64,000 nucleotides of DNA, taken from a virus (taxonomy: Duplodnaviria; Heunggongvirae; Uroviricota; Caudoviricetes). Each line of letters begins with the position of its first letter. Position 1 is the stretch's first letter. Under the pieces are notes generated by a model, which saw only the letters and a list, made by a program, of their open reading frames with translations, searched no databases and was not told where the DNA came from. The DNA lies in IMG/VR virus record IMGVR_UViG_3300042991_000725, positions 59,632 through 123,631 of that record; one strand, 5' to 3'. Shown here one piece after another: positions 49,451 through 64,000 of this stretch. Position numbers and translations under genes: made by a program.

Positions 49451-49708
49451 TCAGACTTTATCGTTTGTCTCTAAAAAATTTATCATTTCTTCTTGAGTAT
49501 TATTATTCAATATTATTTCTTGGAAACAGCCATAGGTGCATTTGTAGCCAAACACATATCTTATTGCAATCCATAATCTTTGCAAGAGCCGAAGATGCGT
49601 TAAATGAATCTCTACATAAACTTCTGGCTCACCATCTATTTTGCGCAGGATTAACTGATGTTCTGGAGAAGAGCAGGCGCAAAAGAAAATAATGTCTTTG
49701 TTTTTCAT
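49451..49708 (-). CDS. hypothetical protein
   Basis: 85-aa ORF. Confidence 0.35.
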   Translation of the reverse strand: MKNKDIIFFCACSSPEHQLILRKIDGEPEVYVEIHLTHLRLLQRLWIAIRYVFGYKCTYGCFQEIILNNNTQEEMINFLETNDKV

Positions 49709-50753: not shown

Positions 50754-50926
50754 TTCAAGGCTCCTTTAAAACGTTGGTTTAATATGCTACTTGACATGAT
50801 AATAGATATAAAACATCTGAATATACTGTCAACTTTTTTATTTTTCCTGTAGATTGACCGTATATAATATACAAGACAGGGGGGTATTTGGCGTTTCATA
50901 TGCGGCGCACCCGTGCTCAAACTTTA

Positions 50927-51010
50927 GAAAAAGAAAGAAGAAAAAAGAGAAAGAAAGAAAAGAAAGAAGCAAAGAAAAGAAAGAAAGAGAAAAAAGAATA
51001 AAGAAAAAGA
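50927..51010. repeat. polypurine (AAGAAAGA)n low-complexity tract
   Basis: ~85 bp of A/G only on the plus strand in the divergent intergenic region. Confidence 0.7.
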
Positions 51011-51325
51011 TTGCAATTACTTATTATATAAAGATTTAAAGGAGTAGTAATTGCTCGAACTTCAAAATCTGCATTTTGACGGCAATTCTTGAATTCAAAC
51101 GAACGTTTGTATGCCCTCCCAGATGGCCGTTTTTACACACATACGCACACCGCCTTTATAAATAAGACAATATTATATCTGGGCGACCCGATAATTCTAT
51201 ATCCGCTTGTGATTGATAATAAAAAAATTTTGTTGACAGTATTTTCGGGTCTTGACAATCTATATTGGTATGCATGCATCTTTGCCAATCAATAACTTTA
51301 AGCGTTTCATACCACGGAGGGGACA

Positions 51326-51550
51326 ATGGGCGATTCTAAAAAAACTAGGATTAAGGCTTCTATCAACGTTAAACCGACCAAAAGAATGCTTGATGAGATT
51401 GCTGCAAACGAGGAGGCTATGGCGGCGCTTAAACACAAAGATGGTCACGAAGACAAGTCTGATTGTTTTATTTGTATTGACAAGTGCAAATGTGATGATA
51501 TAATTTCAAAGAACATTAAAAACAAAAAGCGTATAAAAAAGGATAACTAG
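51326..51550 (+). CDS. hypothetical protein
   Basis: 74 aa; CFICIDKCKCDD. Confidence 0.4.
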   Translation: MGDSKKTRIKASINVKPTKRMLDEIAANEEAMAALKHKDGHEDKSDCFICIDKCKCDDIISKNIKNKKRIKKDN

Positions 51551-52227
51551 TGCGCATTGTTGCCGTATCAATAAACAATAAAAAGTATTATTTTTTTGAT
51601 AAAAACCAAGACAAGAGCATCAGCCTTGCTAACGCCTGTTACGGCAAGTTTGAAGAAATTATCGAGTTTATTATCAACAAAAAGGCAATGCTTTATTTGG
51701 ACATGTTGCCCACATATGAAAAAGGAGATATAGCCCAGGAGATGCGGATAATCGCTTTAAATTCATTCAAAGATTTTGATGTCAGTGTTGTTTTTGGTAA
51801 AAAGAAAAATATACCAGCTAAAGATTGTGAAAATCTTATTTATATGTTTGTTCTTAAAGCAATAACGTGGCGGATGTTTAACATCAGGAGAGATAAATTA
51901 GTTAGAACCTCGGACCCGTGTTATTACTGCAAAAAGAAAACAAAAAACAAAAATGGGACATGTTCTATAAAATGTAAAAATATCCATAACAAGGTTGTTG
52001 ACGACAAGATCAAGATGAATCTATTGCTCCCATATTCTATTTTTGACGACAACTACAAACAAAAAAGAGTAGTTAAAAACAACGATGTTCAATTGCTTAA
52101 TATCATGGTGAAAGAGGCGTTTGATTACAATATAGATGATTTAAATAATTTTATTTATAAAGGTGAAATGCCATATGATAAGCGAGCCAGGCTCAAAAAA
52201 AAGCTCAGAAAATATTTTTTCAAGTAA
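51550..52227 (+). CDS. hypothetical protein
   Basis: 225 aa, GTG start; CYYCKKK...CSIKCKN. Confidence 0.4.
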   Translation: MRIVAVSINNKKYYFFDKNQDKSISLANACYGKFEEIIEFIINKKAMLYLDMLPTYEKGDIAQEMRIIALNSFKDFDVSVVFGKKKNIPAKDCENLIYMFVLKAITWRMFNIRRDKLVRTSDPCYYCKKKTKNKNGTCSIKCKNIHNKVVDDKIKMNLLLPYSIFDDNYKQKRVVKNNDVQLLNIMVKEAFDYNIDDLNNFIYKGEMPYDKRARLKKKLRKYFFK

Positions 52228-53047
52228 TTTTGGTGGAGAGTTTTTGTCCGACGAAACTAAAGGGGAAGGGAAAGAAGATAGCGATAAGTCGGTTAAGATA
52301 AGCAGGCCAAAGATTTCGAGGAAAATAACGGACTTTGACAAAGACTACATCAAGCGAAACTATCTTGTTATGTCTGATGAAGAAATAGCAGATGCGCTTG
52401 GCAAGACTGCCGCATCGGTATATAAGGCAAGGAAGGCTCTTGGATTTCTAAAAGATTCTGCATCTATTGAAAAAAACAAAGACGTTTTTGATAAAGACAA
52501 ACAAGACTCAATTTCTGCATTAAGTGACCACGACAGGGCGACTTTAGCCATTGCAGAACTTAAAAGGTCTGGCCATTACAAGTGGATAGAAACAGAACTT
52601 ATAGAAAACGAAAAAGATATTTATTTGCGAGAATTTGCGGATCAAATAGCACAACTTGAGGGTATAACCCCAGCAGAAGTCCATTCACTTCATATCATGT
52701 TAATGGAAAGAATTAAGCAACACAGAATAAACGAGCTTAAGGCGGACAAACTCCGTGAGGCCAGAGCGCAGGGTGGCTCTATAGACACAGATGCTCTTCT
52801 TACGCTTGAGAAAGAGTATAGTGAGAGTGTCAAAAACTATAGGGAGATACAAAAAACACTTATGTTAGAAAGGAGAGAAAGAAAAGATATTGCTAAAAAC
52901 AAGTATGATCTTATCAGTCTTATAAAGAAGTTGTCTGAAAGAAAGTCTAGAGACGAGATTGGTAAAGAAATAGTAGAAACAAATTTGGCGACGATAGAGT
53001 ACAGGAGTACAATAGCAGCTAATGCTGTTTTTGGCGACCAACAATAA
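52163..53047 (+). CDS. HTH protein (sigma-70 region-4-like) with C-terminal coiled coil
   Basis: MSDEEIADALGKTAASVYKARKALG resembles sigma region 4 / small-terminase-type HTH; true start probably downstream of 52163. Confidence 0.4.
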   Translation: MKCHMISEPGSKKSSENIFSSNFGGEFLSDETKGEGKEDSDKSVKISRPKISRKITDFDKDYIKRNYLVMSDEEIADALGKTAASVYKARKALGFLKDSASIEKNKDVFDKDKQDSISALSDHDRATLAIAELKRSGHYKWIETELIENEKDIYLREFADQIAQLEGITPAEVHSLHIMLMERIKQHRINELKADKLREARAQGGSIDTDALLTLEKEYSESVKNYREIQKTLMLERRERKDIAKNKYDLISLIKKLSERKSRDEIGKEIVETNLATIEYRSTIAANAVFGDQQ

Positions 53048-53546: not shown

Positions 53547-55985
53547 ATGTCAAATATGAAACATATCGACTATCCAGAGGTTTTAACAAATTTTTCTCCA
53601 AATGCACTAAAGATAATGGAGCAGCATTATTATCTCAAGGACCATAGCGGAAAATTAACAGAAAGGTGTCCGTCAGAGGTTTTTAAGAGAATTTGTGGTT
53701 TTTATCATAGAAACGGAATGGAGGTAGAGAAGTGCAAGTTTTTATATAAGCTGTTAATGAAACAAATTGTGGCATTAAATAGTCCAATTTATTACAATGT
53801 AAGAAACGATAAAAACTCAGCCCAGTGTTTGGCGTGTTTTATGGGGCAGTTTGAGGATTCTATAGACAGCATTAATTCAGAAATATCTAAGGCCGTCAAG
53901 ATATTTAAGCGCGGAGCTGGATTTGGCCATAACTATGGTGACTTGAGGCCGTCCAGCGCATCAATTGGAGATGGCGGCAAGAACATAGACAAATTCGGCG
54001 GAAGTTCTGGCCCACTGTCGTTCTTGAAGGTCGTGAACGTTTGGGCGAGAGAGATGAAGTCTGGAGGGCATCGTAGAGCAGCATACTTGGCCACATTGGA
54101 TTGTACACATCCAGACATAGAGAAATTTATAAAATGCAAGAGCATTGGAGACGAGAGAGAGTCTTATGTGTACGCGAACCTGTCGGTGTTTTTAACAAAT
54201 GACTTTATGTTGAAGGTTGTCAACAACGAGCAGGTTGATTTAGAGTGGGGCGGTGTTGTATACAAGACGGTGAACGCAGCAGATTTGTTTTATCAAATAT
54301 GCGAAGGTGCCAAGACTTCTGGAGATCCGGGCGTTTTGTTTGGTGACACAGCTCAAGAATACAATACGCTTGAAGAGTTTAATGGGAAGCCGACAAAGGT
54401 TAGAACAACCAATGCTTGTAGCGAACTTGTTGCATATGCTCCGCATTTTTGTTGTAACCTAGGCCATATTAATTTATATAAGCTGTATTTGTTTTGTCAA
54501 GAAGAGAATCTTAATTTGGTCACAGAGGTTGGTAAAATCTCCTCATTTCTTTCAGATTTCTTAGACAAAAACATAGATATTACAGAATATCCAGACGAAG
54601 TATTTGAGGTAACGGCGAAAAGAACTAGGCCGATAAGTATTGGCGTTATGGGCTTTGGTGAGATGTTGATGGCTGCAAAAATTAGATACGGTTCTATCAA
54701 ATCTATTGATTTGGCAGAAGAAATTTCAGAAGAGTTAACGCTTAGCGCTCTTGAAAGGGCCACAGAAACACAATCGTCCTATGAGGAATTGAGCAATAGT
54801 AAGAATAGGTTGCGGCTTGTGGGCGTATTACGGAAATATGAAGAACGGTCGTCTATTAAGAAAGACAGATGGACACACATTATAAGCCATATCCTATCGG
54901 GTGGACATTTTAGAAACTGTGCTGTATCCTCTGTTGCGCCAACTGGGAATAGTGGTCTTATTTCCGATTCTGGCACAACCGGTATTGAACCGGCATTTGC
55001 CTTGTATCACACAAGGAACGTGGCTGGCCAGTCCGAGCCGTTGAGGGTTGTTGACTTTGAATTAGAAAAGTTTATGAAAGAAAATAAATACGAAAACGTT
55101 TTTGATATACAGGGCATGCCAGATCACTTTATTTCCGCACATGACATAGATCCTATAGGTAGAATCAAGGTTCAGGCTGCTTTTCAAAAATTTATTATGT
55201 TTGGTATTTCGTCAACTATTAATTTGGCCAAAGACACTCCGGCAGATAAAATTAGAGATATTTATTTGACTGCTTGGAAGTCTGGCCTAAAAGGTATAAC
55301 CGTTTTTGTGGACGGGTGCTTGAAAAGTTTTGGTGGCAGTCAGGTTCTTGAGAGAGAAGAAAGCAAGATGTTAGACTCTGATATAGAAATATGCTTAGAC
55401 GGAAAGGAAATAAAAGAACAGAATAGGATATTGAAGATCACATTAACAAAAACAAGGCAGAAGGTGCAGGGATTGGAAGATAAATTAAAGATTGTCGATG
55501 GAGGATTTAAGCGTCCAATCAATGTAAAATCAGAAACTTTTTGCTTTAAGCTTCAACATAACAGGGGCGTTCATGAATTTTTGGTTACTGTTGGCGAAAT
55601 AAATGGGAAGCCGATAGAGGTTATTATTACGCTCGGCAAAAGCGGGACCGATGAGCATGCGTGGGCAGAGGCTGTTGGTCGTCTTATTTCAATGGCTCTA
55701 CAAACAGAAATACCTCTAGATCGTATTTGTAAAAAGATCAGAGACATTAAAGGCGATCTTTCTAATTTTGTAAAGTTCGAAGATAAACAGGAGCGGTCTG
55801 TGATGATTTATAGCATACCGGACTTAACGGCGAGGTTATTAGAATATAAGTATTTATTAAAAGACAAAATTGAAATAGAGGGCGCTCAAGAATGTTCTGA
55901 GTGTAACAACTTAACGCTTGTTTTTGAGGCTGGGTGTCAGATATGTAAAAATCCAGAGTGTGATTACAAGAAGGCTTGTGGATGA
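53547..55985 (+). CDS. ribonucleotide reductase catalytic subunit, class I/II type (probably class II, B12-dependent)
   Basis: 812 aa; NSPIYYN, AQCLACF, RRAAYLATLDCTHPDIEKFI, TNACSELV and CCNLGHINL match the RNR active-site/thiyl motifs. No ATP cone, no NrdB in the window, and a C-terminal CxxC...CxxC zinc ribbon favour class II. Confidence 0.7.
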   Translation: MSNMKHIDYPEVLTNFSPNALKIMEQHYYLKDHSGKLTERCPSEVFKRICGFYHRNGMEVEKCKFLYKLLMKQIVALNSPIYYNVRNDKNSAQCLACFMGQFEDSIDSINSEISKAVKIFKRGAGFGHNYGDLRPSSASIGDGGKNIDKFGGSSGPLSFLKVVNVWAREMKSGGHRRAAYLATLDCTHPDIEKFIKCKSIGDERESYVYANLSVFLTNDFMLKVVNNEQVDLEWGGVVYKTVNAADLFYQICEGAKTSGDPGVLFGDTAQEYNTLEEFNGKPTKVRTTNACSELVAYAPHFCCNLGHINLYKLYLFCQEENLNLVTEVGKISSFLSDFLDKNIDITEYPDEVFEVTAKRTRPISIGVMGFGEMLMAAKIRYGSIKSIDLAEEISEELTLSALERATETQSSYEELSNSKNRLRLVGVLRKYEERSSIKKDRWTHIISHILSGGHFRNCAVSSVAPTGNSGLISDSGTTGIEPAFALYHTRNVAGQSEPLRVVDFELEKFMKENKYENVFDIQGMPDHFISAHDIDPIGRIKVQAAFQKFIMFGISSTINLAKDTPADKIRDIYLTAWKSGLKGITVFVDGCLKSFGGSQVLEREESKMLDSDIEICLDGKEIKEQNRILKITLTKTRQKVQGLEDKLKIVDGGFKRPINVKSETFCFKLQHNRGVHEFLVTVGEINGKPIEVIITLGKSGTDEHAWAEAVGRLISMALQTEIPLDRICKKIRDIKGDLSNFVKFEDKQERSVMIYSIPDLTARLLEYKYLLKDKIEIEGAQECSECNNLTLVFEAGCQICKNPECDYKKACG

Positions 55986-56956
55986 GACCAGAATTAAGCA
56001 CTCATATTCCAGTAAATATTGCGCAAAAAAGGGCCATAATAATACCCACATGCAATAGGCACATATATTTAACAGAGTGTCTTAATAGTTTGTCTAAATG
56101 CAGGGGGGCGATACTGTTTGATGTTTTTGTTTTTGTTGATGCTCCTGCGAAGCTTGATTTGTGTAAAAAGACAATAGATGTTTTAGATAAATTCGACAAG
56201 AATGCTTTTGCGTCCTTTAATATTATAAAAAGAGAGTGTAATTATGGCATAACAAAGAATATTTTATTTGCTATGAAGTACATTTTTGACAACAACTATG
56301 ATTATTTGGTGACAATAGAAGACGATCTTATTCTGTCGAAAGACGCTCTAGAGTTTATGATAACGCTTAACCAGAGAGAAACGTGGCTTGACGACAAGAA
56401 GGTTTTTAGTCTATGTGGGTGCGGAATATCGGACCATGTTAATGACAAATATTTAGACATGACATTTATGTTAAATTGGAACAAATCAATTTTTGTTAGC
56501 TATAGAAAGAGTGTGTGGAATCTTATAGAGCCGTATTTGTGCAGAGAGTATCTTGGAGACATTAATACTCGGACACACGAAGAGAAGATGAAAGAGTATA
56601 TCTATAAGAACTTTAGCGGAAAAATAGCATCAACCAAATACGCACAATATCATGCCGACAGATTTTGGGTAGGAGGTAAGGCCAGATACCCGCTACAGGC
56701 AGGGCTTCTTAACTGCATCAGAGCCGCTAATGAAATGTATCAGGTGTGTGCCTATCACAGCAGAGCCAAGCACATTGGCGTTGTTGGCTGGAACCAAACA
56801 TTTAAGACTCTTGACAGGGCACCGAAGGCCGTTCTTGATAATATGCTAAAAAATCCAGATTCATTTGTTCATATTGTCGGGAATGGTACATGGAAAGATG
56901 ACTTTAAGTGGAACTATATTATTAATGGCAACAATGTAGAAGGGGTGGTTAGATGA
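55982..56956 (+). CDS. glycosyltransferase (GT-A/GT2-like)
   Basis: ATG overlaps the RNR stop; AIIIPTCNR resembles the GT2 N-terminal motif. Confidence 0.45.
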   Translation: MRPELSTHIPVNIAQKRAIIIPTCNRHIYLTECLNSLSKCRGAILFDVFVFVDAPAKLDLCKKTIDVLDKFDKNAFASFNIIKRECNYGITKNILFAMKYIFDNNYDYLVTIEDDLILSKDALEFMITLNQRETWLDDKKVFSLCGCGISDHVNDKYLDMTFMLNWNKSIFVSYRKSVWNLIEPYLCREYLGDINTRTHEEKMKEYIYKNFSGKIASTKYAQYHADRFWVGGKARYPLQAGLLNCIRAANEMYQVCAYHSRAKHIGVVGWNQTFKTLDRAPKAVLDNMLKNPDSFVHIVGNGTWKDDFKWNYIINGNNVEGVVR

Positions 56957-58071
56957 ACAAATACGCCTTTGTTGTTGGCGCTAGACCAAACTTTATGAAA
57001 ATCGCCCCCATATTAAGGTGTATTGACGAAACAAAGGCAGACATTCAGTATATCCTTGTTCATACGGGTCAGCACAAAAGTGTGGTGATGTCTGATGTTT
57101 TTTTTAATGATCTTGGAATAAAACATCCAGACTATATTTTTGATACAGATAGCGACAGGTTTGTTAGGGCTGGTCCAATTATGTCTGCGTTTAGTGATGT
57201 TATTGATAAAGAAAGGATAACACACACGTTTGTTGTCGGTGATGTTGACTCTACGTTTCTGTGTGCTTTCGTAGCCAAAAACAAAGGCTGTTTTGTTATG
57301 CATGCAGAGGCTGGACTTAGAAGTTTCGATACGGGAATGCCAGAAGAGCTTAATAGGGTTCTGACAGACTCTATTTCTGACAAATTTTTTGTTACAGAGA
57401 GTTCTGGTGTAAATAATTTAGTTAAAGAGGGACGGAGGTTGGCAGAGATTCATCTCGTTGGGAACCTAATGATCGATAGCCTTATTTATCAGTTAAACAA
57501 GCTCAATGGGGCAGATCTGTCTGCCAGTACAAAAATAAAAAGTATTATCGGTGATAAATATGTTGTTTTAACAATGCATAGACCGAGCAATGTTGATTCA
57601 AAGCCACAACTTGAAAGAATTATAAGCAAGCTTTTGTGTGTTGCTATAGATATTCCAATTGTGTTTTGTTGCCATCCAAGAACCGCCAACAAGATAGACG
57701 AGTTCGGTTTTAGTAATCTATTTGCCCGTATCCCCCAGCCAAACAGCGACAAGATACTTATTACAGACCCGCTGGGATACAACGACTTCATAAATATCTT
57801 AAAGGACGCAACTGCTGTAATAACTGATAGCGGTGGGATACAAGAAGAGCTTGTATATCTTAATGTTCCATGCATTACAATTAGGAATAGCACCGAGCGG
57901 CCATCTACGATTCAATCTGGAGGCAATATACTTATTGGTAAAAACTACGACCTAATAAGACAATATGTTTCGTTGGCTATACATAAAAAGTGGCCAGAGA
58001 TAAAGACTCCCGAATTATGGGATGGTAATTCGTCATCTAGAATACTTAATATATTGACGGGGCTCGCATGA
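56953..58071 (+). CDS. wecB: UDP-N-acetylglucosamine 2-epimerase (non-hydrolysing)
   Basis: LVHTGQHKSVVMSDVFFNDLGI, HAEAGLRSFD and DSGGIQEE match the 2-epimerase family. Confidence 0.8.
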   Translation: MNKYAFVVGARPNFMKIAPILRCIDETKADIQYILVHTGQHKSVVMSDVFFNDLGIKHPDYIFDTDSDRFVRAGPIMSAFSDVIDKERITHTFVVGDVDSTFLCAFVAKNKGCFVMHAEAGLRSFDTGMPEELNRVLTDSISDKFFVTESSGVNNLVKEGRRLAEIHLVGNLMIDSLIYQLNKLNGADLSASTKIKSIIGDKYVVLTMHRPSNVDSKPQLERIISKLLCVAIDIPIVFCCHPRTANKIDEFGFSNLFARIPQPNSDKILITDPLGYNDFINILKDATAVITDSGGIQEELVYLNVPCITIRNSTERPSTIQSGGNILIGKNYDLIRQYVSLAIHKKWPEIKTPELWDGNSSSRILNILTGLA

Positions 58072-58901
58072 GAAATATTACAATATGTACTACATTTAAA
58101 AACAGGGCGAATTATTTGCGTAATCATTTTAATTTTGTTCTTATGCAGGACTATGACCACAAAAAAATATCATATATTATTGCAGATGGCGGAAGTTCCG
58201 ATCACGTTCTAGATATTGTAAAAGAGTACTACGGTAGATTCAAGCAAGTGTGTTTTTTTGTTAGCGATAGAAATAAGTTGCCTTTGAAGTTGAAATATGG
58301 CAATCCGGCGATAGATTATAATGTTAGCGTTTCTCAATCAGAAGACGATCTTGTATTGAGATGCGACCCTGAAGTCGTATTCAGGAATAAGGATATGTTG
58401 AGGTTTGTTTCTAGTGTTTATGATAATAATTGTGACTATTTGCTTCATTTTAACACAATAAAAGTAAATAAAGAATTCAATCCAAGTAGCGATGTACACA
58501 TGGAGTTTGTAGACAGGTTCGCCTTAAAGGGCAAGCCATATCAAACAGATGCTAGTTTTTGTGTGTCTTATAGTAAGCGGTTTTTTATGGAAAAAATGAG
58601 GGGTTATGATGAGCGTTTTGCTTACAATTATTACTGTGGAGAGGACACATACGCTAGTCACTGGGTCAGGATAAATTACAAGTTTATAACTGCGCCATTC
58701 GAATATTCTCCGATTCATTTATGGCACGAGGAACAGATGTGCCGTGAGGATCGCGAAAGAGTCGTTACAACAGAAACTGTTCCATTTATAAGGATGTTGC
58801 AGTCGAAGAACGAAAATGCGAACTGCGGTATTGACAATTGGTGGCATCCAGAAATTATTACAAACAAGATAATTTTTAATGCTGGGGGTGGTAATGAATG
58901 A
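58068..58901 (+). CDS. glycosyltransferase (GT-A-like)
   Basis: ITICTTFKNRANYL N-terminal motif; translationally coupled to wecB. Confidence 0.4.
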   Translation: MRNITICTTFKNRANYLRNHFNFVLMQDYDHKKISYIIADGGSSDHVLDIVKEYYGRFKQVCFFVSDRNKLPLKLKYGNPAIDYNVSVSQSEDDLVLRCDPEVVFRNKDMLRFVSSVYDNNCDYLLHFNTIKVNKEFNPSSDVHMEFVDRFALKGKPYQTDASFCVSYSKRFFMEKMRGYDERFAYNYYCGEDTYASHWVRINYKFITAPFEYSPIHLWHEEQMCREDRERVVTTETVPFIRMLQSKNENANCGIDNWWHPEIITNKIIFNAGGGNE

Positions 58902-59709
58902 ACTGTGTGTGCATATACTTGCGCGTTATGAACCGTTTATTGTCTATGCTGTCGAGAGTGTTGTTAAATATGCCAATAAGATATTGTTATATGATACTGG
59001 GTCTAGGGATGCAGAATTTCCTGACTATACTATTAGCGATTGCGAAATGTTGGCTAACAAGTATCCAGACAAAGTTGTTTTTAAGGAATTTAAGACAGAG
59101 GATGAGACTCCATGGAATTTGGATACTCTAGGAGATTTTAAGGCTCGTATGGCAGGGAAGTCAGGCAAGGGGGCCGTTAGAAAAAAACATATAGAAGACA
59201 CAGACCCAAATGAATTTTCTCATTTTCTAGTTGTCGATGCAGACGAAATTTATTATGAAGAAACAATAGCTAAGATAAAAAACACAATAATCAACGAGAA
59301 TTGGGGAAAAATTTTGAATTATCGTGTTCCGCTTATATGGTATTATGACAAGGATACCTATTTTGACATTGGCCATACTGGACGAATTTTTATCACAAAA
59401 AAGACAGATATGCATATTGGTTCTCCGGGCGAAATGCATTGTGAAAAAGGAACCGGCAGTGTATTCAACTATTCAGATGGAACGTTGAAGGTAAGAGAAG
59501 ACTTGAAGTATGTTACGCACTGGGAGACTTATTTGAAAAGATGGAGAAGGCCGGTTGACAAATCTCTAATGCGTAGTCGTAAAGAAGAATTGCCAGAGGT
59601 TATGATTGATGATATGTCTTATTTTGAGAGATTTGAAAAAGAGCTCAAGGGGCCGCGTGAGGAGTATTATAAAGAGAAGCAGAAAAAATTATTCGGGAGC
59701 TTTCGATGA
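58894..59709 (+). CDS. hypothetical protein, possible GT-A glycosyltransferase
   Basis: Start MNELC overlapping the upstream stop; LVVDADE (DxD-like). Confidence 0.35.
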   Translation: MNELCVHILARYEPFIVYAVESVVKYANKILLYDTGSRDAEFPDYTISDCEMLANKYPDKVVFKEFKTEDETPWNLDTLGDFKARMAGKSGKGAVRKKHIEDTDPNEFSHFLVVDADEIYYEETIAKIKNTIINENWGKILNYRVPLIWYYDKDTYFDIGHTGRIFITKKTDMHIGSPGEMHCEKGTGSVFNYSDGTLKVREDLKYVTHWETYLKRWRRPVDKSLMRSRKEELPEVMIDDMSYFERFEKELKGPREEYYKEKQKKLFGSFR

Positions 59710-60536
59710 AAATCAAAAGAGTCGGCATGATTACCGGCTATACCATTAGTCAAGTGCGGATGGTAGAGGCCGTTAAGAAGCTGTGCAAAATTATTGGAGC
59801 GGAATTTGTTACTAGGTGTTTGTTTAATGAATTAAGTCCAGAACTTGACACTTGTGACTTGGTTATTGATGGGAACCGTGCTTATAAGAGGGCATTTAAG
59901 GATCAGAAAATCGTTTTTTTCTTTACCGGATGTGGCGATTTAACATCTAACGCTAGAAATGAAAGGCAGTTTTGTGAAAATATAGATTTTATTATTCTAC
60001 CTAAAAACAGAAGCTTAAAAAATCCAAAGGTATACTATAAATATAAAGAGATTGGGAATATAACGCAGTTATATTTTGAGGATTTTTATGTAGATGTTAC
60101 AAGTTATCCTAAAAAAGATATTGTTTTAGTGCCAGACGAAAACTGTTTTCAGATGGATAATATACTGGGCGTCGCTAGAAAGTTTGCCGAAGAGGAAGGT
60201 TTGGATGTCAGTTATAAGAGCAGGCAGAATGACGAGCCAATTGACAAGGTTATGTTGTTTTTGCGTGAGGCTAAATATATATTCACCGGATTTTCTACAA
60301 TGGCATTTGAGGGTTTATACTTTAATATTCCGTGCTGCATGTTAGACGGACTTACTGCCAAAAACATTACAAACAATAACGACCTATTTTATAAAGAAAT
60401 GAAAGAAATGTATCCTGAGATTGTAATTAAAAGCCATAAAGACGTAAAAAATATAAAGCCAGAAGTTTATAAGCAAATACGTTCCGAATTTTACAATCCC
60501 AACTTTGTCGATGACTTTGTAAATCTTTTTGAATAA
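59706..60536 (+). CDS. hypothetical protein
   Basis: 276 aa, coupled within the sugar operon. Confidence 0.4.
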   Translation: MKIKRVGMITGYTISQVRMVEAVKKLCKIIGAEFVTRCLFNELSPELDTCDLVIDGNRAYKRAFKDQKIVFFFTGCGDLTSNARNERQFCENIDFIILPKNRSLKNPKVYYKYKEIGNITQLYFEDFYVDVTSYPKKDIVLVPDENCFQMDNILGVARKFAEEEGLDVSYKSRQNDEPIDKVMLFLREAKYIFTGFSTMAFEGLYFNIPCCMLDGLTAKNITNNNDLFYKEMKEMYPEIVIKSHKDVKNIKPEVYKQIRSEFYNPNFVDDFVNLFE

Positions 60537-60546
60537 GGAGTTCGGC

Positions 60547-61311
60547 ATGTCGGGAAAAATGGGCATTATTGTTGTTTCTAGACTTTCATCAACCAGATTG
60601 CCAAGGAAGGCCATTCTTAATATAGGTAAAAAAAGAGCTATAGAGTATGTTTTTGAAAGAGCTGTCAATACTATCGGCGTCTCTGGTGTTTGTTTGGCTA
60701 CGTCTTATTTTAATGAAAATAGCATTTTGTGCGACATTGCTAAGGAATATGGGATTACATCTTATAAGGGTAGCGATTCAGATAAGGCTTTGCGTATATG
60801 TGAAGCAGCAGAACTTTGTGGGTTTGATTTCTTTGTCACATATGACGGAGATGATCTTTTCGTTTCAGAAGAGCTGGCAGAAATTGCCTTCGATAGATAC
60901 AAGAAGGAGCATTTCGATTTTATAGAATCTGATTATGATTTGGCTGTTGGTGCGTTTAGTTATGGATTCAAGACCAGCGCCTTAAGGACAATTTGTAATC
61001 TAAAGGACTCAGAAGATACAGAAATGGTTTTTAATTTTTTTGAAGCCAAGCGAGACATTTTTAATCTGGCGAAACTTACCGATGTCGATAGAGTTTATTA
61101 TAATGGCAAGGTTAGAGCTACACTGGACTATTATGAAGATCTTTTATTTTTCAAAAATATAGTTGAAAATATAGGTGTGGAAAGGTTTACCATGCGAGAT
61201 GTTTTGAATTATATAAGTTGCCATCCTGAAGTCATCAATATAAATTTCCAACGCAATTTAGATTGGATTAGGAATAGAGAAAATCACAAAAAAGTAGAAT
61301 TTAAGGTGTAA
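60547..61311 (+). CDS. CMP-sugar cytidylyltransferase (NeuA/KdsB/PseF family)
   Basis: AAGGAG SD; GIIVVSRLSSTRLPRKAILNIGKKRAIEYVFERA matches the CTP_transf_3 N-terminal motif. Confidence 0.65.
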   Translation: MSGKMGIIVVSRLSSTRLPRKAILNIGKKRAIEYVFERAVNTIGVSGVCLATSYFNENSILCDIAKEYGITSYKGSDSDKALRICEAAELCGFDFFVTYDGDDLFVSEELAEIAFDRYKKEHFDFIESDYDLAVGAFSYGFKTSALRTICNLKDSEDTEMVFNFFEAKRDIFNLAKLTDVDRVYYNGKVRATLDYYEDLLFFKNIVENIGVERFTMRDVLNYISCHPEVININFQRNLDWIRNRENHKKVEFKV

Positions 61312-61312
61312 G

Positions 61313-62188
61313 ATGAATATACTCATCACTGGATGTAGTGGTTTTGTTGGGTCTTATTTGACAAAGGCTTTGCACAAACTTGGTCATACAATCATAGGTA
61401 TTGACATAAACGACCTTGGCCCAACATGTGACAGTAAAAGTGTGGATATTTTTTTTAAGCACGACCTAACAAAGCCATTTTATAACTATATTGGCAACAT
61501 AGACTTATGCATACATTTGGCAAGTTCTGTTGGTGGCATTTTATTTAATGTTGACAAGCCTAACATTGTGGTGTATAATAAGATAGTGAATGAGAATGTT
61601 TTGAATCTGTGTGTGAGGGCAAGATGTGACAGGTTATTGTTTTTTTCAAGCATAAATGTGTTCGAAGACCGTTGTCAATTTTCTCACGAACCTCTTTATA
61701 AGCTTACGCCATATGCGGAGTCGAAGGTTGAAGGTGAGCGATTGTTCGAAAGTGCCTGTGAGAATTTAATGGTTATTAGACCAACCAATATTTTTGGGAA
61801 GAATCAGAATAGGCACGGCGGGTTTGGAGAATCTCATGTGATCCCAGACCTTTTGAAAAAAATAGACGAAAGCGACATATTGGAAGTCTGGGGAGACGGG
61901 AAACAGATGCGAAACTTTGTTCATGTTGTTGATTTATGTAATTTTATTCTGGAGGGTCTTAATTTTAATGGCAAGCTGTATTTCAACATCAGGTCGGATT
62001 TGACAATTTCAATAACCTCGTTGGCTAATTCGCTTATGGAGTTCAAGGGGAAGGCGCTGCCAATCGTTTATAAAAAAGAATATTTACAGCATGAGCGGAT
62101 GAAACTTGTTGATTTTGATATGTCGTTGCCTATTGCTTTTGGATGGAAACAGTCTATTCGTAGTATTGGCGAAGGGCTTTTGATATGA
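61313..62188 (+). CDS. NAD-dependent epimerase/dehydratase (extended SDR)
   Basis: ILITGCSGFVGSYL Rossmann motif; YAESK catalytic YxxxK. Confidence 0.7.
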   Translation: MNILITGCSGFVGSYLTKALHKLGHTIIGIDINDLGPTCDSKSVDIFFKHDLTKPFYNYIGNIDLCIHLASSVGGILFNVDKPNIVVYNKIVNENVLNLCVRARCDRLLFFSSINVFEDRCQFSHEPLYKLTPYAESKVEGERLFESACENLMVIRPTNIFGKNQNRHGGFGESHVIPDLLKKIDESDILEVWGDGKQMRNFVHVVDLCNFILEGLNFNGKLYFNIRSDLTISITSLANSLMEFKGKALPIVYKKEYLQHERMKLVDFDMSLPIAFGWKQSIRSIGEGLLI

Positions 62189-62370
62189 ATCACGACGACA
62201 CCATTGTTGTATTTGGTTCTTCTGGTATGGCCGGATCTGCTATTTCGGAACAGCTTCGTGGAAATGGACATCTTTTCGTTGTTAAGCCCAATAGGACTCA
62301 TGCTGATTTGATGAATTATGATTCAACTATTGATTTTTTGAGAATGTCTGAGCCTAGGAAGGGAAAATAA
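62185..62370 (+). pseudogene. truncated GDP-L-fucose synthase (Fcl/GMER)-like N-terminal fragment
   Basis: 61 aa TIVVFGSSGMAGSAISEQLRGNGHLFVVKPNRTHADLMNYDSTIDFL aligns with the Fcl N-terminus, then stops. Confidence 0.45.
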
Positions 62371-62372
62371 TT

Positions 62373-63569
62373 ATGGACAGGTTCTTCGGTAACGAATCTA
62401 ACTATTTAACGAAGGCCCTTTATTTGGGCGAGCAGTATGTACGGAAGTTTGAAGAAGAGTTAATTAAATACACTGGTTGTAAATATGCCGTGTTATTTAA
62501 TAGCGGAACGGCTACATTGCACACCGCACTATTGGCCGCTGGTGTAGAAAAGAATGATGCCGTTATTACACCAGCCCTTGCCCCATTTATGTGTACAAGT
62601 TCTATTTTTCATGCTGGAGCAGTCCCTTATTATTGTGATATAGACGAAAAGACGTTTACGATGTCATATGATCATTTTATTAAGCTCGTTGAGAGCGATA
62701 AAAAGAAATACGATAGCAAACATCATATTTCTGCGGCAATTTTAGTTTCGCTTTATGGCAATCCTGTTGATTTACGAATTATTAATTATGCGAAAGAAAA
62801 TGATATTGCTGTCATTCTTGATGATGCGCAGGGCTTTGGTGGGAGAATCTGTGGGAAGCATAGCTGCATATATGGAGACATTACGTCATATAGTTTTGAG
62901 AATTCGAAATTGGTAAATGTGTCGGAAGGTGGGGCTATAGTCACAGATAATGAAGAGCTTGCTACTAAGTGTAGACTTATAGGCAATCATGGATTTAAAA
63001 ACTCAACGGCGATTATGGGTAAAACGAAATTAAACAAGAGCGTTTTCCAAGACCCAGACTACATCAGACATTCTCATATTGGTTATAATTTCAGAATGAG
63101 CAACTATCTTGCTGCTATTGGCTTGGCCCAGATGGAAAACGTAGAGAAGCTTCTTGAATATAGGCGTTTGTCGGCTGAAAAACTTGACGATGTTGCTATA
63201 AGCAGCAATTGCCTGACGCCGCAAGTTATCAGTCTTACCAACACTCATGCCAATTATATTTATGCTTGTTTGTACAATCCAGAAGTCACTGGAATTCCAT
63301 GGAAGGAGTTTAGAGAGCTTTATATTCAAAATGGTGGAGAATCTCTTTATTCTGCCTGGATGAATCCATATTTTGAAGCAGCCATGGTTAATGAAGAATA
63401 TATTCGTTTTAATAGCGAGTATATTACCCCGGGCAGAGGCAGTTGTCCAACGGCTGAGCGTCTTCAAAAAAATATCATGCAATTCCAAACTAATGCAACC
63501 ACACAAGAAGAGGCTGACGTGAAAGCTAGAGCTCTTTACAAAACACTTTGTCAGGTGGGCGCAATATGA
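62373..63569 (+). CDS. DegT/DnrJ/EryC1/StrS-family PLP-dependent sugar aminotransferase
   Basis: 398 aa; LIKYTGCKYAVLFNSGTATLHTALLAAGVEKNDAVITPALAPF typical of DegT aminotransferases. Confidence 0.7.
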   Translation: MDRFFGNESNYLTKALYLGEQYVRKFEEELIKYTGCKYAVLFNSGTATLHTALLAAGVEKNDAVITPALAPFMCTSSIFHAGAVPYYCDIDEKTFTMSYDHFIKLVESDKKKYDSKHHISAAILVSLYGNPVDLRIINYAKENDIAVILDDAQGFGGRICGKHSCIYGDITSYSFENSKLVNVSEGGAIVTDNEELATKCRLIGNHGFKNSTAIMGKTKLNKSVFQDPDYIRHSHIGYNFRMSNYLAAIGLAQMENVEKLLEYRRLSAEKLDDVAISSNCLTPQVISLTNTHANYIYACLYNPEVTGIPWKEFRELYIQNGGESLYSAWMNPYFEAAMVNEEYIRFNSEYITPGRGSCPTAERLQKNIMQFQTNATTQEEADVKARALYKTLCQVGAI

Positions 63570-64000
63570 AAGAGACTGTTATAGTAACTGGTTCTAAGGG
63601 GTTGGTAGGGAGGGCCGTAACGAATAGGCTTAAGAATGTTGGGTGTCGTGTTATTGAGGCCGACATCGTTGACGGTGATGATTTTAATGACGAAGATTAT
63701 GTTAAGTCTTTTTTCAAGAAGAACATTGGCACAGCCCTTGTCAATCTCTTTGCTATGAATGACCATGTTGATGGTGGCGCAAGAGGAAATAGACTGATGG
63801 ATATTTCTCTTGATAGTTTTGACAACTATCTTAAGGTCAATGTAACTTCGCTTTTTTCTGTTTGTAGGGAGTTTGCACGCAATAGTATGAACGGCTCTAT
63901 TGTCAACTTTACATCAACGTATGGTGTTGTTTCTCCTGATCCTCTACTCTATGACAACGGAGAGAAGCATATAGCCTATGGAGTTTCTAAGGCCGCAGTA
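63566..64000 (+). CDS. short-chain dehydrogenase/reductase (partial, runs off window end)
   Basis: ATG overlaps the upstream stop; VIVTGSKGLVGRAV glycine motif and YGVSKAAV (YxxxK). Confidence 0.6.
   Translation, partial: MKETVIVTGSKGLVGRAVTNRLKNVGCRVIEADIVDGDDFNDEDYVKSFFKKNIGTALVNLFAMNDHVDGGARGNRLMDISLDSFDNYLKVNVTSLFSVCREFARNSMNGSIVNFTSTYGVVSPDPLLYDNGEKHIAYGVSKAAV

What the first reader, a model, noticed from the sequence alone, without database searches (positions are those of the whole stretch)
55982..64000. Translationally coupled CMP-sugar/amino-sugar biosynthesis operon in a phage-like genome, with a decayed Fcl-like gene
Downstream of SSB and RNR, ten overlapping genes encode UDP-GlcNAc 2-epimerase, three or more putative glycosyltransferases, a NeuA/KdsB/PseF-family cytidylyltransferase, an NAD-dependent epimerase/dehydratase, a DegT-family aminotransferase and an SDR. 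This is the enzyme set for an amino/nonulosonic-type activated sugar; the synthase step may lie beyond 64000. Phage-encoded glycan pathways could decorate virion proteins or remodel the host surface for superinfection exclusion. A 61-aa ORF aligning to the N-terminus of GDP-fucose synthase marks a recently lost step.
Basis: partly seen in the sequence, partly recalled or inferred. Interest (0 to 1): 0.55.

Follow-up and report, generated by a model that had tools for sequence, protein, structure and literature searches.

The report
Phage-encoded sialic-acid-like glycan gene island
A large tailed phage carries, between its replication genes and its head genes, a tightly packed 17.5-kb block of genes for making a sialic-acid-like (nonulosonic) sugar and attaching it with several soluble glycosyltransferases; this is rare in phages, and its target (virion, host surface or DNA) is still unknown.

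Summary
Window 55982-64000 (+) has ten abutting or overlapping ORFs. They encode three GT-A glycosyltransferases, one GT-B-fold protein, a non-hydrolysing WecB-type 2-epimerase, a CTP_transf_3 cytidylyltransferase, an Fcl-like SDR, a 61-aa Fcl N-terminal fragment, a DegT aminotransferase and a PtmA-like SDR.

An identical metagenomic contig extends the locus. The island runs to window-equivalent ~73463 (22 genes). It is followed by an intein-bearing large terminase, a portal, a cement protein and a major head protein. With 32 tRNA genes and RNA-repair genes upstream, this is a tailed phage of at least 154 kb, not bacterial flank.

Four genes recur together elsewhere: NeuB lacking the SAF domain, the cytidylyltransferase, DegT and the PtmA-like SDR. 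They are found in a cyanomyovirus and in a Polynucleobacter chromosome, and three of them (no PtmA-like SDR) in a 207-kb phage-like contig. The exact sugar cannot be named.

No flippase, polymerase or priming transferase is present. I favour cytoplasmic glycosylation of virion proteins (inferred). Host-surface remodelling and DNA glycosylation are not excluded.

The 61-aa ORF is a real Fcl remnant. It sits in a 1.06-kb insertion between two genes that are adjacent or fused elsewhere. "Recent" loss cannot be tested.

The parts
51477..51504 (+). Perfect sigma-70-type promoter match (TTGACA-16-TATAAT with TG). It lies in the strand-switch gap, ahead of the co-directional block that holds SSB, RNR, the glycan island and the head genes.
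   Evidence: 12/12 match in an intergenic position. Consensus match only; function not shown.
55982..56956 (+). ORF1, GT-A glycosyltransferase (GT2) with an EDD motif. Its start overlaps the RNR stop codon (ATGA).
   Evidence: Pfam PF00535 29.8 bits, above the 23.3 cut-off. 42% identical orthologue at the same position after SSB-RNR in related phage contig L008.
56953..58071 (+). ORF2, non-hydrolysing UDP-GlcNAc 2-epimerase (WecB type). Predicted product: UDP-ManNAc or a related UDP-sugar.
   Evidence: PF02350 1.9e-81. TIGR00236 wecB 235.5 bits, above the 210 cut-off; NeuC 57 bits, far below its 236 cut-off. Best PDB match 4neq at 246 bits; hydrolysing SiaA 6vlb only 94 bits.
58068..58901 (+). 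ORF3, GT-A glycosyltransferase (GT2).
   Evidence: PF00535 33.7 bits. 44% identical orthologue in L008.
58894..59709 (+). ORF4, GT-A-fold glycosyltransferase of a small family found only on phage-like contigs. Invariant DTGS and DxDE motifs.
   Evidence: No HMM hit. Only 4 homologues, all on phage-like contigs. AF2 pLDDT 81.8, pTM 0.85. Best structural matches are the SunS/ThuS peptide S-glycosyltransferases, E 6.6e-9. Motifs from alignment A1.
59706..60536 (+). ORF5, compact GT-B-fold protein. Candidate CMP-sugar-dependent transferase (inferred).
60547..61311 (+). ORF6, cytidylyltransferase (CTP_transf_3; KdsB/SpsF-like). Predicted to CMP-activate the ulosonic acid.
   Evidence: PF02348 9e-14. 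Best PDB match 6oew at 49 bits, then KdsB enzymes. 36-41% identical to the cytidylyltransferases next to DegT in L002, L003, L012 and L014.
61313..62188 (+). ORF7, extended SDR of the Fcl/GalE type (4-reductase or epimerase, not a dehydratase). Part of a 1.06-kb insertion between ORF6 and ORF9.
   Evidence: PF01370 2.3e-36; Fcl 77 bits, LegB 46 bits, both far below their cut-offs. Motifs read from the sequence: GxxGxxG at 7, SSINVF at 112 (no Asp/Glu dehydratase pair; Ile where, from memory, Fcl has its catalytic Cys), YAESK at 134, SHVIPDLL at 174.
62185..62370 (+). ORF8, 61-aa remnant of the N-terminus of a GDP-fucose-synthase-type gene (only the first Rossmann beta-alpha-beta).
   Evidence: NCBIfam Fcl E 2.9e-4. 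PDB Fcl 8ewu E 9e-4, colinear 1-57. 38% identity and E 3e-7 against a certified Fcl. No similarity to the two full-length SDRs of the island. Its last codons (PRKGK, stop) coincide with the Shine-Dalgarno sequence of ORF9.
62373..63569 (+). ORF9, PLP-dependent sugar aminotransferase (DegT family). The subfamily is recurrently adjacent or fused to CTP_transf_3.
   Evidence: PF01041 3.4e-58. LegC 172 bits and PseC 169 bits, both below the ~420 cut-offs. Nearest homologues are only 43% identical, and several are DegT-CTP_transf_3 fusions.
63566..64000 (+). ORF10 (cut by the window end; the full gene is 226 aa and ends at window-equivalent 64246). Classical SDR of the PRK09186/PtmA-like type.
   Evidence: NCBIfam PRK09186 128 bits, PtmA 81 bits. 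53% identical to the SDR that follows DegT in Polynucleobacter.

Best explanation
The finding is the first 8 kb of a 17.5-kb, 22-gene glycan-biosynthesis island (window 55982 to window-equivalent ~73463). It belongs to a tailed phage of at least 154 kb and lies between SSB/RNR and the terminase-portal-head module.

Shown by homology: the island encodes a NeuB-family synthase lacking the SAF domain, a cytidylyltransferase, a DegT aminotransferase, a PtmA-like SDR, two extended SDRs (one with a dehydratase-like S-S-E / YxxxK signature), a PIG-L deacetylase, methyltransferases, a non-hydrolysing WecB epimerase, three GT-A enzymes, one GT-B-fold protein and a GT4.

Inferred mechanism: the phage makes its own CMP-activated, amino-substituted and probably methylated nonulosonic (sialic-acid-like) acid, plus UDP-ManNAc. 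The soluble transferases then assemble a short glycan in the cytoplasm. ORF5, which keeps its position directly upstream of the cytidylyltransferase in a distant relative, is the candidate transferase for the CMP-sugar.

The most likely acceptor is a phage structural protein (capsid, cement or tail). This would give a sialic-acid-like coat on the virion, analogous to mycobacteriophage virion glycosylation and to legionaminic acid on Bacillus spore crust proteins.

The 61-aa ORF is a non-functional remnant of an Fcl-type gene. It lies in a 1.06-kb ORF7+ORF8 insertion that splits the otherwise conserved cytidylyltransferase-DegT pair.
For: Identity and extent:
- Contig L001/L010 is 100% identical to the window over 11,628 nt.
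- Downstream genes found: NeuB 1.2e-65, PIG-L, DUF268, an SDR, GT4 and a methyltransferase.
- After the island: TerL with an intein (phrog_9666, 6.7e-47), portal 7e-14, Phage_cement 3.3e-4, major head protein 5.5e-9.
- Upstream: 32 tRNA genes, RNA ligase, RtcB and DNA methyltransferases.

Lineage feature, not cargo:
- Related contig L008 has SSB-RNR-GT2-GT2-ORF4h-CTP_transf_3, with 42-51% identical orthologues.

Conserved module:
- CTP_transf_3 and DegT are adjacent, and a NeuB-family gene lies in the same cluster, in L002, L003 and L012. L014 shows the CTP_transf_3-DegT pair but ends inside DegT.
- A PtmA-like SDR sits next to the pair in L003 and L012. DegT-cytidylyltransferase fusions also exist.

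Cytoplasmic assembly:
- None of the island's 22 proteins, nor SSB or RNR upstream, has more than one hydrophobic stretch. None hits a flippase, polymerase, ABC transporter or priming transferase family.

Protein target:
- ORF4's best structural matches are peptide-glycosylating SunS/ThuS.
- A ClpP-family, prohead-protease-like gene is embedded in the island (phrog_94, 8.5e-27).
- The island abuts and is co-directional with the head module, with no enrichment of terminators.

ORF5:
- TagF/TarL are the top structural hits.
- TagB-like proteins are the proposed Pse/Leg transferases in Tannerella and B. subtilis (PMC5420450, PMC7439481).
- The ORF5-CTP_transf_3 adjacency is conserved.
Against: - No acceptor has been shown. 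Adjacency to head genes is circumstantial.
- Peripheral GT2/GT4 enzymes that act on lipid-linked host intermediates also lack transmembrane segments.
- No N-acetyltransferase (LegH/PseH) and no hydrolysing epimerase or PseG-type hydrolase was recognised. The route to the synthase's hexose substrate is therefore unexplained.
- Every equivalog score (LegC, PseC, NeuB, PseI, LegB) is far below its cut-off, so the sugar's identity is open.
- The ClpP-like protein scores about equally as a cellular ClpP (59.7 bits) and as a head-maturation protease (64 bits, cut-off 120). The 626-aa protein between portal and cement has a long C-terminal Ala/Lys/Glu-rich segment with weak coiled-coil-type Pfam hits; it may be the scaffold or protease.
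- Only about 93 kb of the genome (at least 154 kb) could be read.
Confidence: 0.5

Rival explanations
1. Host-surface remodelling. The phage-made CMP-nonulosonic acid and the transferases alter the infected cell's LPS, capsule, S-layer or flagellar glycans, using the host's lipid carrier, flippase and ligase. This would block superinfection by other phages or prevent progeny from re-adsorbing.
For: This is the published reading of glycosyltransferase and sugar clusters in cyanophages and jumbo phages (PMC7824862). The same synthase/cytidylyltransferase/DegT/SDR module sits in a bacterial surface-polysaccharide-type locus in Polynucleobacter, together with Gmd, Fcl, GT10, GT11 and GT25, and in a cyanomyovirus cluster with GT11 and GT2. 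GT2/GT4 enzymes acting on lipid-linked intermediates need no transmembrane segment.
Against: No priming phosphoglycosyl transferase, Wzx, Wzy, ABC transporter, ligase or acyltransferase is present among the 22 genes. A lytic-type phage of at least 154 kb has little time to resurface a cell. The island is contiguous and co-directional with the head genes.
Confidence: 0.3
2. DNA hypermodification. The transferases attach the CMP-activated acid and other sugars to hydroxymethylated bases of the phage DNA to evade restriction and CRISPR, as shown for Kdo- and heptose-modified 5hmC.
Against: No TET/JBP-type dioxygenase and no thymidylate-synthase-type hydroxymethylase was seen. The Pfam coverage is partial: gene tables, plus the ORFs scanned. 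In window 15700-31484 only two ORFs were scanned, and most small ORFs in 43600-52372 were not. The C5-MT sits beside an N6/N4 methyltransferase like an ordinary anti-restriction pair. Five to eight transferases plus a 10-enzyme sugar pathway far exceed the known DNA-glycan clusters.
Confidence: 0.08
3. The cluster is bacterial DNA (chromosome next to a prophage, or an assembly chimera) and is not phage-encoded.
For: All the enzymes have bacterial homologues. Sugar clusters of this kind are typical of bacterial O-antigen and capsule loci.
Against: Phage genes flank the island on both sides on one contig. Two independent assemblies (a 154,404-bp JGI contig and the Logan contigs) hold identical proteins. 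GC content and GC skew are continuous with the neighbours. A related phage contig shows the same SSB-RNR-GT2 synteny.
Confidence: 0.02
4. ORF8 is not a dead remnant. It is a functional small protein, or it marks a fucose-type step that decayed in place rather than an imported fragment.
For: It keeps an ATGA-coupled start, a Shine-Dalgarno motif and an open frame, and both gene callers call it. 6-deoxyhexose genes lie near this nonulosonic module elsewhere: certified Gmd and Fcl in L003, and a 4,6-dehydratase with a divergent Fcl-like gene in L012. An ancestral fucose-type branch in this island is therefore plausible.
Against: It retains 57 residues of a ~320-residue enzyme, so the catalytic Ser/Tyr/Lys and the substrate domain are absent. 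In four comparators the cytidylyltransferase and DegT genes are directly adjacent, so ORF7+ORF8 looks like an insertion. No Gmd and no fucosyltransferase is found in the island.
Confidence: 0.1

Closest known systems
CMP-legionaminic and CMP-pseudaminic acid pathways (C. jejuni LegB/C/H/G/I/F with PtmA; H. pylori PseB/C/H/G/I/F; B. subtilis SpsM/C/D/G/E/F)
   Same: Same enzyme families: a NeuB-family synthase, a CTP_transf_3 cytidylyltransferase, a DegT aminotransferase, a dehydratase-like extended SDR and a PtmA-like SDR. In B. subtilis the product decorates a proteinaceous shell, the spore crust (PMC7439481). That is the closest functional analogy to a virion coat.
   Different: No N-acetyltransferase is present. 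The 2-epimerase is of the non-hydrolysing WecB type. NeuB lacks the SAF domain. All equivalog scores are 40-60% of their cut-offs. The DegT subfamily is linked or fused to the cytidylyltransferase, which is not the arrangement in the classic pathways.
Kdo8N biosynthesis in Shewanella (dehydrogenase KdnB plus aminotransferase KdnA acting on the finished ulosonic acid); pathway recalled from memory
   Same: A dehydrogenase plus a DegT-family aminotransferase paired with an ulosonic-acid synthase and cytidylyltransferase. KdnA (PDB 5k8b) is among ORF9's better structural relatives at 95 bits. This offers a four-enzyme logic that would explain the conserved module without an acetyltransferase.
   Different: KdnB is an iron-dependent alcohol dehydrogenase, not an SDR. 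The substrate is an 8-carbon sugar. The analogy is inference only.
Mycobacteriophage virion glycosylation (Freeman et al. 2023, as cited in PMC12619734)
   Same: Phage-encoded soluble glycosyltransferases modify capsid and tail-tube subunits in the cytoplasm.
   Different: As I recall, those phages carry a few transferases and methyltransferases and use host nucleotide sugars. Here a full pathway for an activated nine-carbon acid is encoded. Glycosylation of this virion has not been shown.
Polysaccharide and glycosyltransferase clusters of cyanophages and jumbo phages (Iyer et al. 2021, PMC7824862)
   Same: Variable cassettes of sugar-nucleotide enzymes plus several paralogous transferases in large phage genomes. 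One cyanomyovirus record (MH319754) carries the same four-gene module.
   Different: The paper's text has no occurrence of sialic, NeuB, nonulosonic, pseudaminic or legionaminic. NeuB homologues occur in only 3 of 50,697 phage records.
Phage DNA glycan hypermodification clusters (Pyle et al., bioRxiv 10.1101/2023.12.21.572611)
   Same: GT-A and GT-B transferases, epimerases and a cytidylyltransferase in phage genomes. A CMP-activated ulosonic acid (Kdo) can be the sugar.
   Different: The defining neighbours (a 5mYOX/TET dioxygenase or a ThyS-type hydroxymethylase next to the transferases) were not found. This island is far larger.
TagB-like nonulosonic acid transferases of Tannerella forsythia (PMC5420450)
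   Same: Soluble GT-B/TagB-like proteins encoded next to the CMP-Pse or CMP-Leg genes. Their acceptor is a ManNAc-type residue. This matches the co-occurrence here of a WecB epimerase with a TagF/TarL-like ORF5.
   Different: ORF5 is 276 aa, against ~445 aa. No sequence similarity was detected, and no invariant His is seen for an HP motif. The resemblance is at fold level only.

Membership tests
CMP-legionaminic acid pathway | NDP-GlcNAc 4,6-dehydratase (LegB/PglF/SpsM) | tested here: inconclusive
   The 310-aa SDR at L001 18215-19147 has S-S-E and YAASK motifs and an RmlB-like score of 97 bits against a 365 cut-off. Its LegB score is 38 bits against 475. ORF7 scores 46 bits on LegB and lacks the acid/base pair.
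CMP-legionaminic acid pathway | LegC-type 4-aminotransferase | tested here: inconclusive
   ORF9 scores 172 bits on TIGR04181 against a 420 cut-off and 169 bits on PseC. The family is met; the equivalog is not.
CMP-legionaminic / CMP-pseudaminic acid pathways | N-acetyltransferase (LegH/PseH/SpsD) | tested here: not met
   No acetyltransferase family hit among the 22 island proteins. Four proteins remain unassigned, so a novel one cannot be excluded.
CMP-legionaminic acid / Neu5Ac pathways | Hydrolysing 2-epimerase (LegG/NeuC) | tested here: not met
   ORF2 passes the non-hydrolysing wecB equivalog (235.5 bits, cut-off 210). It scores 57 bits on NeuC_NnaA against a 236 cut-off. Its PDB ranking agrees.
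Nonulosonic acid pathways in general | NeuB-family PEP-condensing synthase | tested here: met
   PF03102 1.2e-65, full-length on the profile. The motifs MHCNSSYP, GYSGHEVG and IERHVT are present at positions 174, 204 and 226; from memory these carry the metal-binding histidines. Equivalog scores are NeuB 218 bits (cut-off 400) and PseI 161 bits (cut-off 340). The SAF domain is absent; the best PDB relative, 6ncs, is only 290 aa and is matched to its last residues.
Nonulosonic acid pathways in general | CMP-activating cytidylyltransferase (NeuA/PseF/LegF/KdsB family) | tested here: met
   ORF6: PF02348 52 bits, above the 22.6 cut-off. Specificity is unknown, because only KdsB-type subfamily models hit and they hit weakly.
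CMP-pseudaminic acid pathway | PseG-type UDP-sugar hydrolase (GT-B fold) | tested here: inconclusive
GDP-L-fucose synthase (Fcl), for ORF8 | Full-length ~310-320-aa SDR with a Ser/Tyr/Lys catalytic centre and a substrate-binding domain | tested here: not met
   ORF8 is 61 aa and covers only profile positions 3-54 of 308. Its homology to the N-terminus is real. It is a remnant, not an enzyme.
Wzx/Wzy- or ABC-dependent surface polysaccharide locus | Priming phosphoglycosyl transferase plus flippase/polymerase or ABC transporter (multi-pass membrane proteins) | tested here: not met
   No such Pfam or NCBIfam hits. No protein has more than one hydrophobic 19-residue stretch.
Phage DNA sugar-hypermodification cluster | 5mYOX/TET dioxygenase or ThyS-type hydroxymethylase near the transferases | tested here: not met
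   None appears in the Pfam-annotated gene tables or scans. These do not cover most ORFs of window 15700-31484 or the small ORFs of 43600-52372.
Phage virion glycosylation system | Glycans covalently attached to capsid or tail proteins | not testable with these tools
   This needs virion glycoproteomics. Only genomic adjacency to the head module is available.
Caudoviricetes (tailed phage) genome | Large terminase, portal and HK97-type major head protein on the same contig | tested here: met
   PHROG hits for TerL, portal (7.4e-14) and major head protein (5.5e-9), plus Phage_cement 3.3e-4.

The most novel reading that the evidence does not exclude
The phage coats its own virion with a glycan capped by a previously undescribed amino-nonulosonic acid. 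That acid is made by a non-canonical four-enzyme route: a SAF-less NeuB, a KdsB-like cytidylyltransferase, and a PtmA-like SDR plus DegT that aminate the finished nine-carbon acid, as in Kdo8N synthesis. ORF5 would then found a new family of compact GT-B CMP-nonulosonate transferases. This would be the first sialic-acid-like virion modification, and the first such biosynthetic route, described for a bacteriophage.
Probability: 0.2. Interest if true: 0.8.

Novelty: new variant of a known kind. Interest (0 to 1): 0.55.

Why it matters
Nonulosonic acids (sialic, legionaminic and pseudaminic acids) are used by cells as surface identity marks and as shields against immunity and phages. I found no report of a phage that makes its own. 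NeuB homologues occur in only 3 of 50,697 deposited phage records, and none of those is from a cultured or studied phage.

If the glycan ends up on the virion, this would extend phage virion glycosylation, so far known from mycobacteriophages that use a few transferases, to a self-sufficient sialic-acid-like coat. That would bear on phage stability, adsorption and immune recognition in therapy.

The recurrent NeuB/cytidylyltransferase/DegT/SDR module has no N-acetyltransferase or hydrolysing epimerase recognised beside it in the window island, and the gene tables of L002 and L003 list none either. It occurs in bacteria, a cyanomyovirus and large phage contigs. It points to an uncharacterised biosynthetic route that four cloned genes could test. 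ORF4, ORF5 and the two orphan paralogues are candidate new transferase families for glyco-engineering.

Tried and rejected
- Megablast of the 8-kb region against 50,697 phage records found no match. tblastn with RNR gave at most 27% identity, so no named relative exists.
- A scan of IMG/VR with DegT peptide patterns found nothing.
I got round this with exact-sequence cluster ids.
- The paralogue pair after NeuB (330 and 321 aa, 35% identical), the 261-aa protein and the 201-aa protein gave nothing. There was no Pfam hit even at E = 10 apart from E >= 0.07 noise for the 201-aa protein and no PHROG hit. The 330- and 201-aa proteins had no credible PDB sequence hit (one at E 0.46), and the 330-aa protein has no homologue in 5.8 billion proteins. 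From HDD/NPD motifs read by eye I suspect they are GT-A enzymes. I do not claim this.
- Was ORF8 a local duplicate of ORF7 or of the 310-aa SDR? No: E 0.42 and 0.07.
- Flanking direct repeats around the ORF7+ORF8 insertion: only short two-copy matches of 9-22 nt, of the kind the tool warns are often chance.
- ORF5 as PseG: not supported by the structural rankings.
- Intrinsic terminators that would delimit the operon: counts equal the shuffled expectation.
- A TET-like gene beside the C5 methyltransferase: none found among the ORFs of 43600-51600.
- Literature searches for phage-encoded nonulosonic acid synthesis returned only phage enzymes that modify host capsule sugars.

Full report
**1. 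Observation**

The + strand of window 55982-64000 holds ten ORFs with almost no intergenic DNA. Six junctions are 4-nt ATGA overlaps: RNR/ORF1, 1/2, 2/3, 4/5, 7/8 and 9/10. One junction overlaps by 8 nt (3/4). Three are gaps of 1, 2 and 10 nt. Nearly every start has a GGAG/AAGG-type Shine-Dalgarno motif.

Pfam and NCBIfam give the following:
- ORF1 and ORF3: GT2, 29.8 and 33.7 bits against a cut-off of 23.3.
- ORF2: UDP-GlcNAc 2-epimerase, 1.9e-81.
- ORF6: CTP_transf_3, 9e-14.
- ORF7: NAD-dependent epimerase/dehydratase, 2.3e-36.
- ORF8 (61 aa): N-terminus of GDP-fucose synthase, E 2.9e-4.
- ORF9: DegT, 3.4e-58.
- ORF10: classical SDR of the PRK09186/PtmA type.

ORF4 and ORF5 have no HMM hit.

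**2. The locus continues, and it is phage DNA**

A look-up of the DegT protein returned a 50.7-kb metagenomic contig that is identical to the window over all 11,628 shared bases. Further contigs from the same sample tile the rest of the window. A 154,404-bp JGI contig holds the identical proteins.

Ninety-five nucleotides after ORF10 lies a NeuB-family synthase (PF03102, 1.2e-65). After it come:
- two orphan paralogues and a 261-aa orphan;
- a ClpP-family protease;
- a DUF268 methyltransferase-like protein;
- a PIG-L deacetylase and a 201-aa orphan;
- a 310-aa extended SDR;
- a GT4 and a class I methyltransferase.

The island then ends at window-equivalent ~73463. It is followed by an ERCC4-like nuclease, a 1402-aa large terminase interrupted by an intein with a LAGLIDADG domain, a portal, a 626-aa protein with a long C-terminal Ala/Lys/Glu-rich (coiled-coil-like) region, a cement protein and a major head protein.

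Upstream, the window has 32 tRNA genes (29 of them between 37429 and 41415), an Rnl-type RNA ligase, RtcB, amidoligase-like paralogues, three DNA methyltransferases and many small orphan ORFs.

The genome is therefore that of a tailed phage of at least 154 kb.

A related contig (L008) has the same order: SSB, RNR, GT2, GT2, ORF4 homologue, cytidylyltransferase. Its orthologues are 42-51% identical. The glycan cassette is thus a feature of this phage lineage whose accessory genes vary.

**3. What the enzymes say**

- **ORF2** passes the non-hydrolysing wecB equivalog (235.5 bits, cut-off 210) and fails NeuC (57 bits, cut-off 236). Its best solved relatives are the M. jannaschii epimerase and WbpI-type enzymes, not hydrolysing SiaA. 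It probably yields UDP-ManNAc for a transferase rather than free ManNAc for the synthase.
- **ORF7** has SSINVF, YAESK and SHVIPDLL motifs. It lacks the Asp/Glu pair of dehydratases and resembles Fcl/GalE-type reductases or epimerases. The Fcl catalytic residues used for this comparison are recalled from memory.
- **The 310-aa SDR** has S-S-E and YAASK motifs and an RmlB-like score. It is the dehydratase candidate.
- **ORF9** is equidistant from LegC (172 bits) and PseC (169 bits), both well below their cut-offs. Its nearest homologues in 5.8 billion proteins are only 43% identical.
- **NeuB** keeps three conserved motifs (positions 174, 204 and 226) that, from memory, carry the metal-binding histidines. 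It lacks the C-terminal SAF domain; its best solved relative, 6ncs, is itself only 290 aa.
- **The cytidylyltransferase** is KdsB/SpsF-like.
- No N-acetyltransferase was recognised.

The island therefore clearly encodes a CMP-activated, aminated nonulosonic-type acid. The deacetylase and the methyltransferase-type genes (DUF268-like, class I) suggest further tailoring. It does not qualify as a canonical Leg, Pse or Neu5Ac pathway.

**4. ORF4 and ORF5**

ORF4 has four homologues in the large database, all on phage-like contigs with other transferase and sugar genes. Its AlphaFold model (pLDDT 81.8, pTM 0.85) is a GT-A fold. The best matches are the peptide S-glycosyltransferases SunS and ThuS (E 6.6e-9). 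DTGS and DxDE motifs are invariant.

In the one homologue with useful context (two near-identical contigs, L014/L015), the ORF5-like gene is again directly followed by a cytidylyltransferase (41% identical to ORF6) and a DegT (40% identical).

TagB-like proteins are the proposed Pse/Leg transferases of Tannerella, where the acceptor is a ManNAc-type residue. They have also been suggested for B. subtilis SpsB (PMC5420450, PMC7439481). ORF5 is therefore a reasonable, but unproven, candidate for the CMP-sugar transferase. This would also give the WecB epimerase a role.

**5. A conserved module and the Fcl fragment**

The cytidylyltransferase and DegT genes are directly adjacent in four comparators:
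- a 207-kb phage-like contig, L002 (its NeuB is 54% identical to the phage's);
- a Polynucleobacter chromosome, L003;
- a marine cyanomyovirus record, L012 (MH319754);
- L014.

They are fused in several metagenomic proteins. NeuB lies in the same cluster in L002, L003 and L012. A PtmA-like SDR sits next to the pair in L003 and L012.

In the window, ORF6 and ORF9 are separated by 1,061 nt, which hold ORF7 and ORF8.

ORF8 aligns colinearly with residues 1-58 of GDP-fucose synthases. The values are PDB E = 9e-4, and 38% identity with E = 3e-7 against the Polynucleobacter protein that passes the Fcl equivalog cut-off. ORF8 is unrelated to ORF7 and to the 310-aa SDR. The homology stops at residue 57. 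The remaining codons (PRKGK, stop) coincide with the Shine-Dalgarno sequence of DegT.

It is thus a genuine truncated gene. I read it as a recombination scar, the 5' end of a second SDR gene that came in with ORF7. In-place decay is also possible, because 6-deoxyhexose genes accompany this module elsewhere: certified Gmd and Fcl in L003, and a dehydratase with a divergent Fcl-like gene in L012. Nothing allows the event to be dated.

**6. How it most likely works**

Shown: the gene content, the phage context and the conserved linkages.

Inferred: the phage synthesises its own CMP-nonulosonate and UDP-ManNAc. It then builds a glycan with three to eight soluble transferases.

None of the island's 22 proteins (nor SSB or RNR upstream) has more than one hydrophobic stretch. 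None matches a flippase, polymerase, ABC transporter, ligase or priming transferase. Assembly is therefore cytoplasmic and cannot export a polymer on its own.

Three facts favour virion proteins as the acceptor (confidence about 0.45-0.5):
- The island is contiguous and co-directional with the head module.
- It encloses a prohead-protease-like ClpP gene (phrog_94, 8.5e-27).
- ORF4's closest structures glycosylate peptides.

Host-surface remodelling through the host's own export machinery is the main rival (about 0.3). DNA glycosylation is a minor rival (about 0.08). It is kept alive by the demonstration that phage transferases can put Kdo on 5hmC and by a C5 methyltransferase 12 kb upstream. 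It is weakened by the absence of any TET- or ThyS-type gene in the genes that could be scanned within the ~93 kb read (Pfam coverage is partial; see the membership test).

**7. Comparison and novelty**

Virus-encoded glycan pathways are known from giant viruses (recalled from memory), cyanophage and jumbo-phage polysaccharide clusters, mycobacteriophage virion glycosylation and phage DNA glycans. This is therefore a variant of a known kind.

It is uncommon, however. NeuB homologues occur in 3 of 50,697 phage records: one 484-kb metagenomic phage, one single-cell-derived cyanomyovirus and one apparently bacterial contig. My literature searches found no description of phage-encoded nonulosonic acid synthesis.

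The four-gene module has no acetyltransferase or hydrolysing epimerase recognised alongside it, and it has DegT-cytidylyltransferase fusions. This suggests an uncharacterised route, possibly amination of the finished acid as in Kdo8N synthesis. That is inference only.

**8. Limits**

- The sugar's identity, the acceptor and the timing of expression are not established.
- About 60 kb of the genome could not be read.
- Four island proteins remain unassigned.
- The structural matches for ORF5 are at fold level.
- The host is unknown. Strong Shine-Dalgarno use and a consensus sigma-70 promoter at 51477-51504 argue only against hosts that lack these signals.

Noticed in passing
window 37429-41415 (plus 5456-5531, 14303-14383, 19716-19788): 32 tRNA genes, 29 of them between 37429 and 41415, in runs separated by protein-coding ORFs. 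One of those ORFs is an HNH endonuclease (39736-40326). The set is nearly complete, with two or more isoacceptors for several amino acids.
   Followed up: partly
L010 11191-15399 (window-equivalent 73958-78166): The large terminase gene encodes 1402 aa and carries an intein with a LAGLIDADG homing-endonuclease domain. The RNR of relative L008 is 1069 aa against 812 aa here, which may also reflect an intein.
   Followed up: partly
L001 15563-16201 (window-equivalent 67935-68573): A ClpP-family serine protease lies in the middle of the sugar genes, 6 kb upstream of the terminase and 10 kb upstream of the portal. It scores about equally as a head-maturation protease and as a cellular ClpP. The 626-aa protein between portal and cement may be the scaffold or protease instead. 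Its placement is unexplained.
   Followed up: partly
L001 12826-13818 and 13811-14776 (window-equivalent 65198-67148): Two paralogous orphan proteins (330 and 321 aa, 35% identical) are translationally coupled to NeuB. The first has no homologue in 5.8 billion proteins. Both carry an F-H-D-D motif that looks like a GT-A DxD motif.
   Followed up: partly
window 34601-35422, 41731-42717, 42714-43676: Three DNA methyltransferases: two of the N6/N4 type and one C5-cytosine type (1.8e-92). The last two genes overlap. No TET-like dioxygenase lies next to them.
   Followed up: partly
window 829-1863, 33022-34230, 48463-48993, 47490-48053: An RNA-repair-type gene set is scattered through the window: an Rnl-type RNA ligase, RtcB and an AAA_33/KTI12-like kinase. 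A staphylococcal-nuclease homologue is also present. This fits the large tRNA complement.
   Followed up: no
window 11982-12881 and 12898-14130: Adjacent amidoligase-like paralogues (phrog_16683, 1.5e-36 and 1.3e-49) of unknown role.
   Followed up: no
L002 8460-9221: A 207-kb, 26% GC phage-like contig carries a related module (cytidylyltransferase, DegT and NeuB, but no PtmA-like SDR). It encodes a Glyco_transf_29 (eukaryote-type sialyltransferase family) protein directly upstream of its cytidylyltransferase, plus several B12-binding radical SAM enzymes and three DegT paralogues.
   Followed up: no
L012 5855-19424 (MH319754.1, Kyanoviridae): A marine cyanomyovirus genome from single-cell sequencing has the same module (SDR, cytidylyltransferase, DegT, SAF-less NeuB) inside a cluster. 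The cluster also holds a 4,6-dehydratase, an Fcl-like SDR, GT11, GT2, a 2OG-Fe oxygenase and a TOD1/MUCI70-like transferase.
   Followed up: partly
L001 19144-19248 (window-equivalent 71516-71620) and L008 8922-9167: Other mini-ORFs are wedged between sugar genes: 34 aa here, and 81 aa in the relative at the position where this phage has the WecB gene. They may be further scars of cassette turnover. No similarity was found by eye.
   Followed up: no
window 61551-61579: A second perfect 12/12 sigma-70 consensus match lies inside the ORF7 coding sequence, that is, inside the presumed insertion. It could be chance or an internal promoter.
   Followed up: no
window 46075-47319, 36173-37165, 1865-2926: Three radical-SAM-like proteins of unknown function are encoded outside the glycan island.
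   Followed up: no
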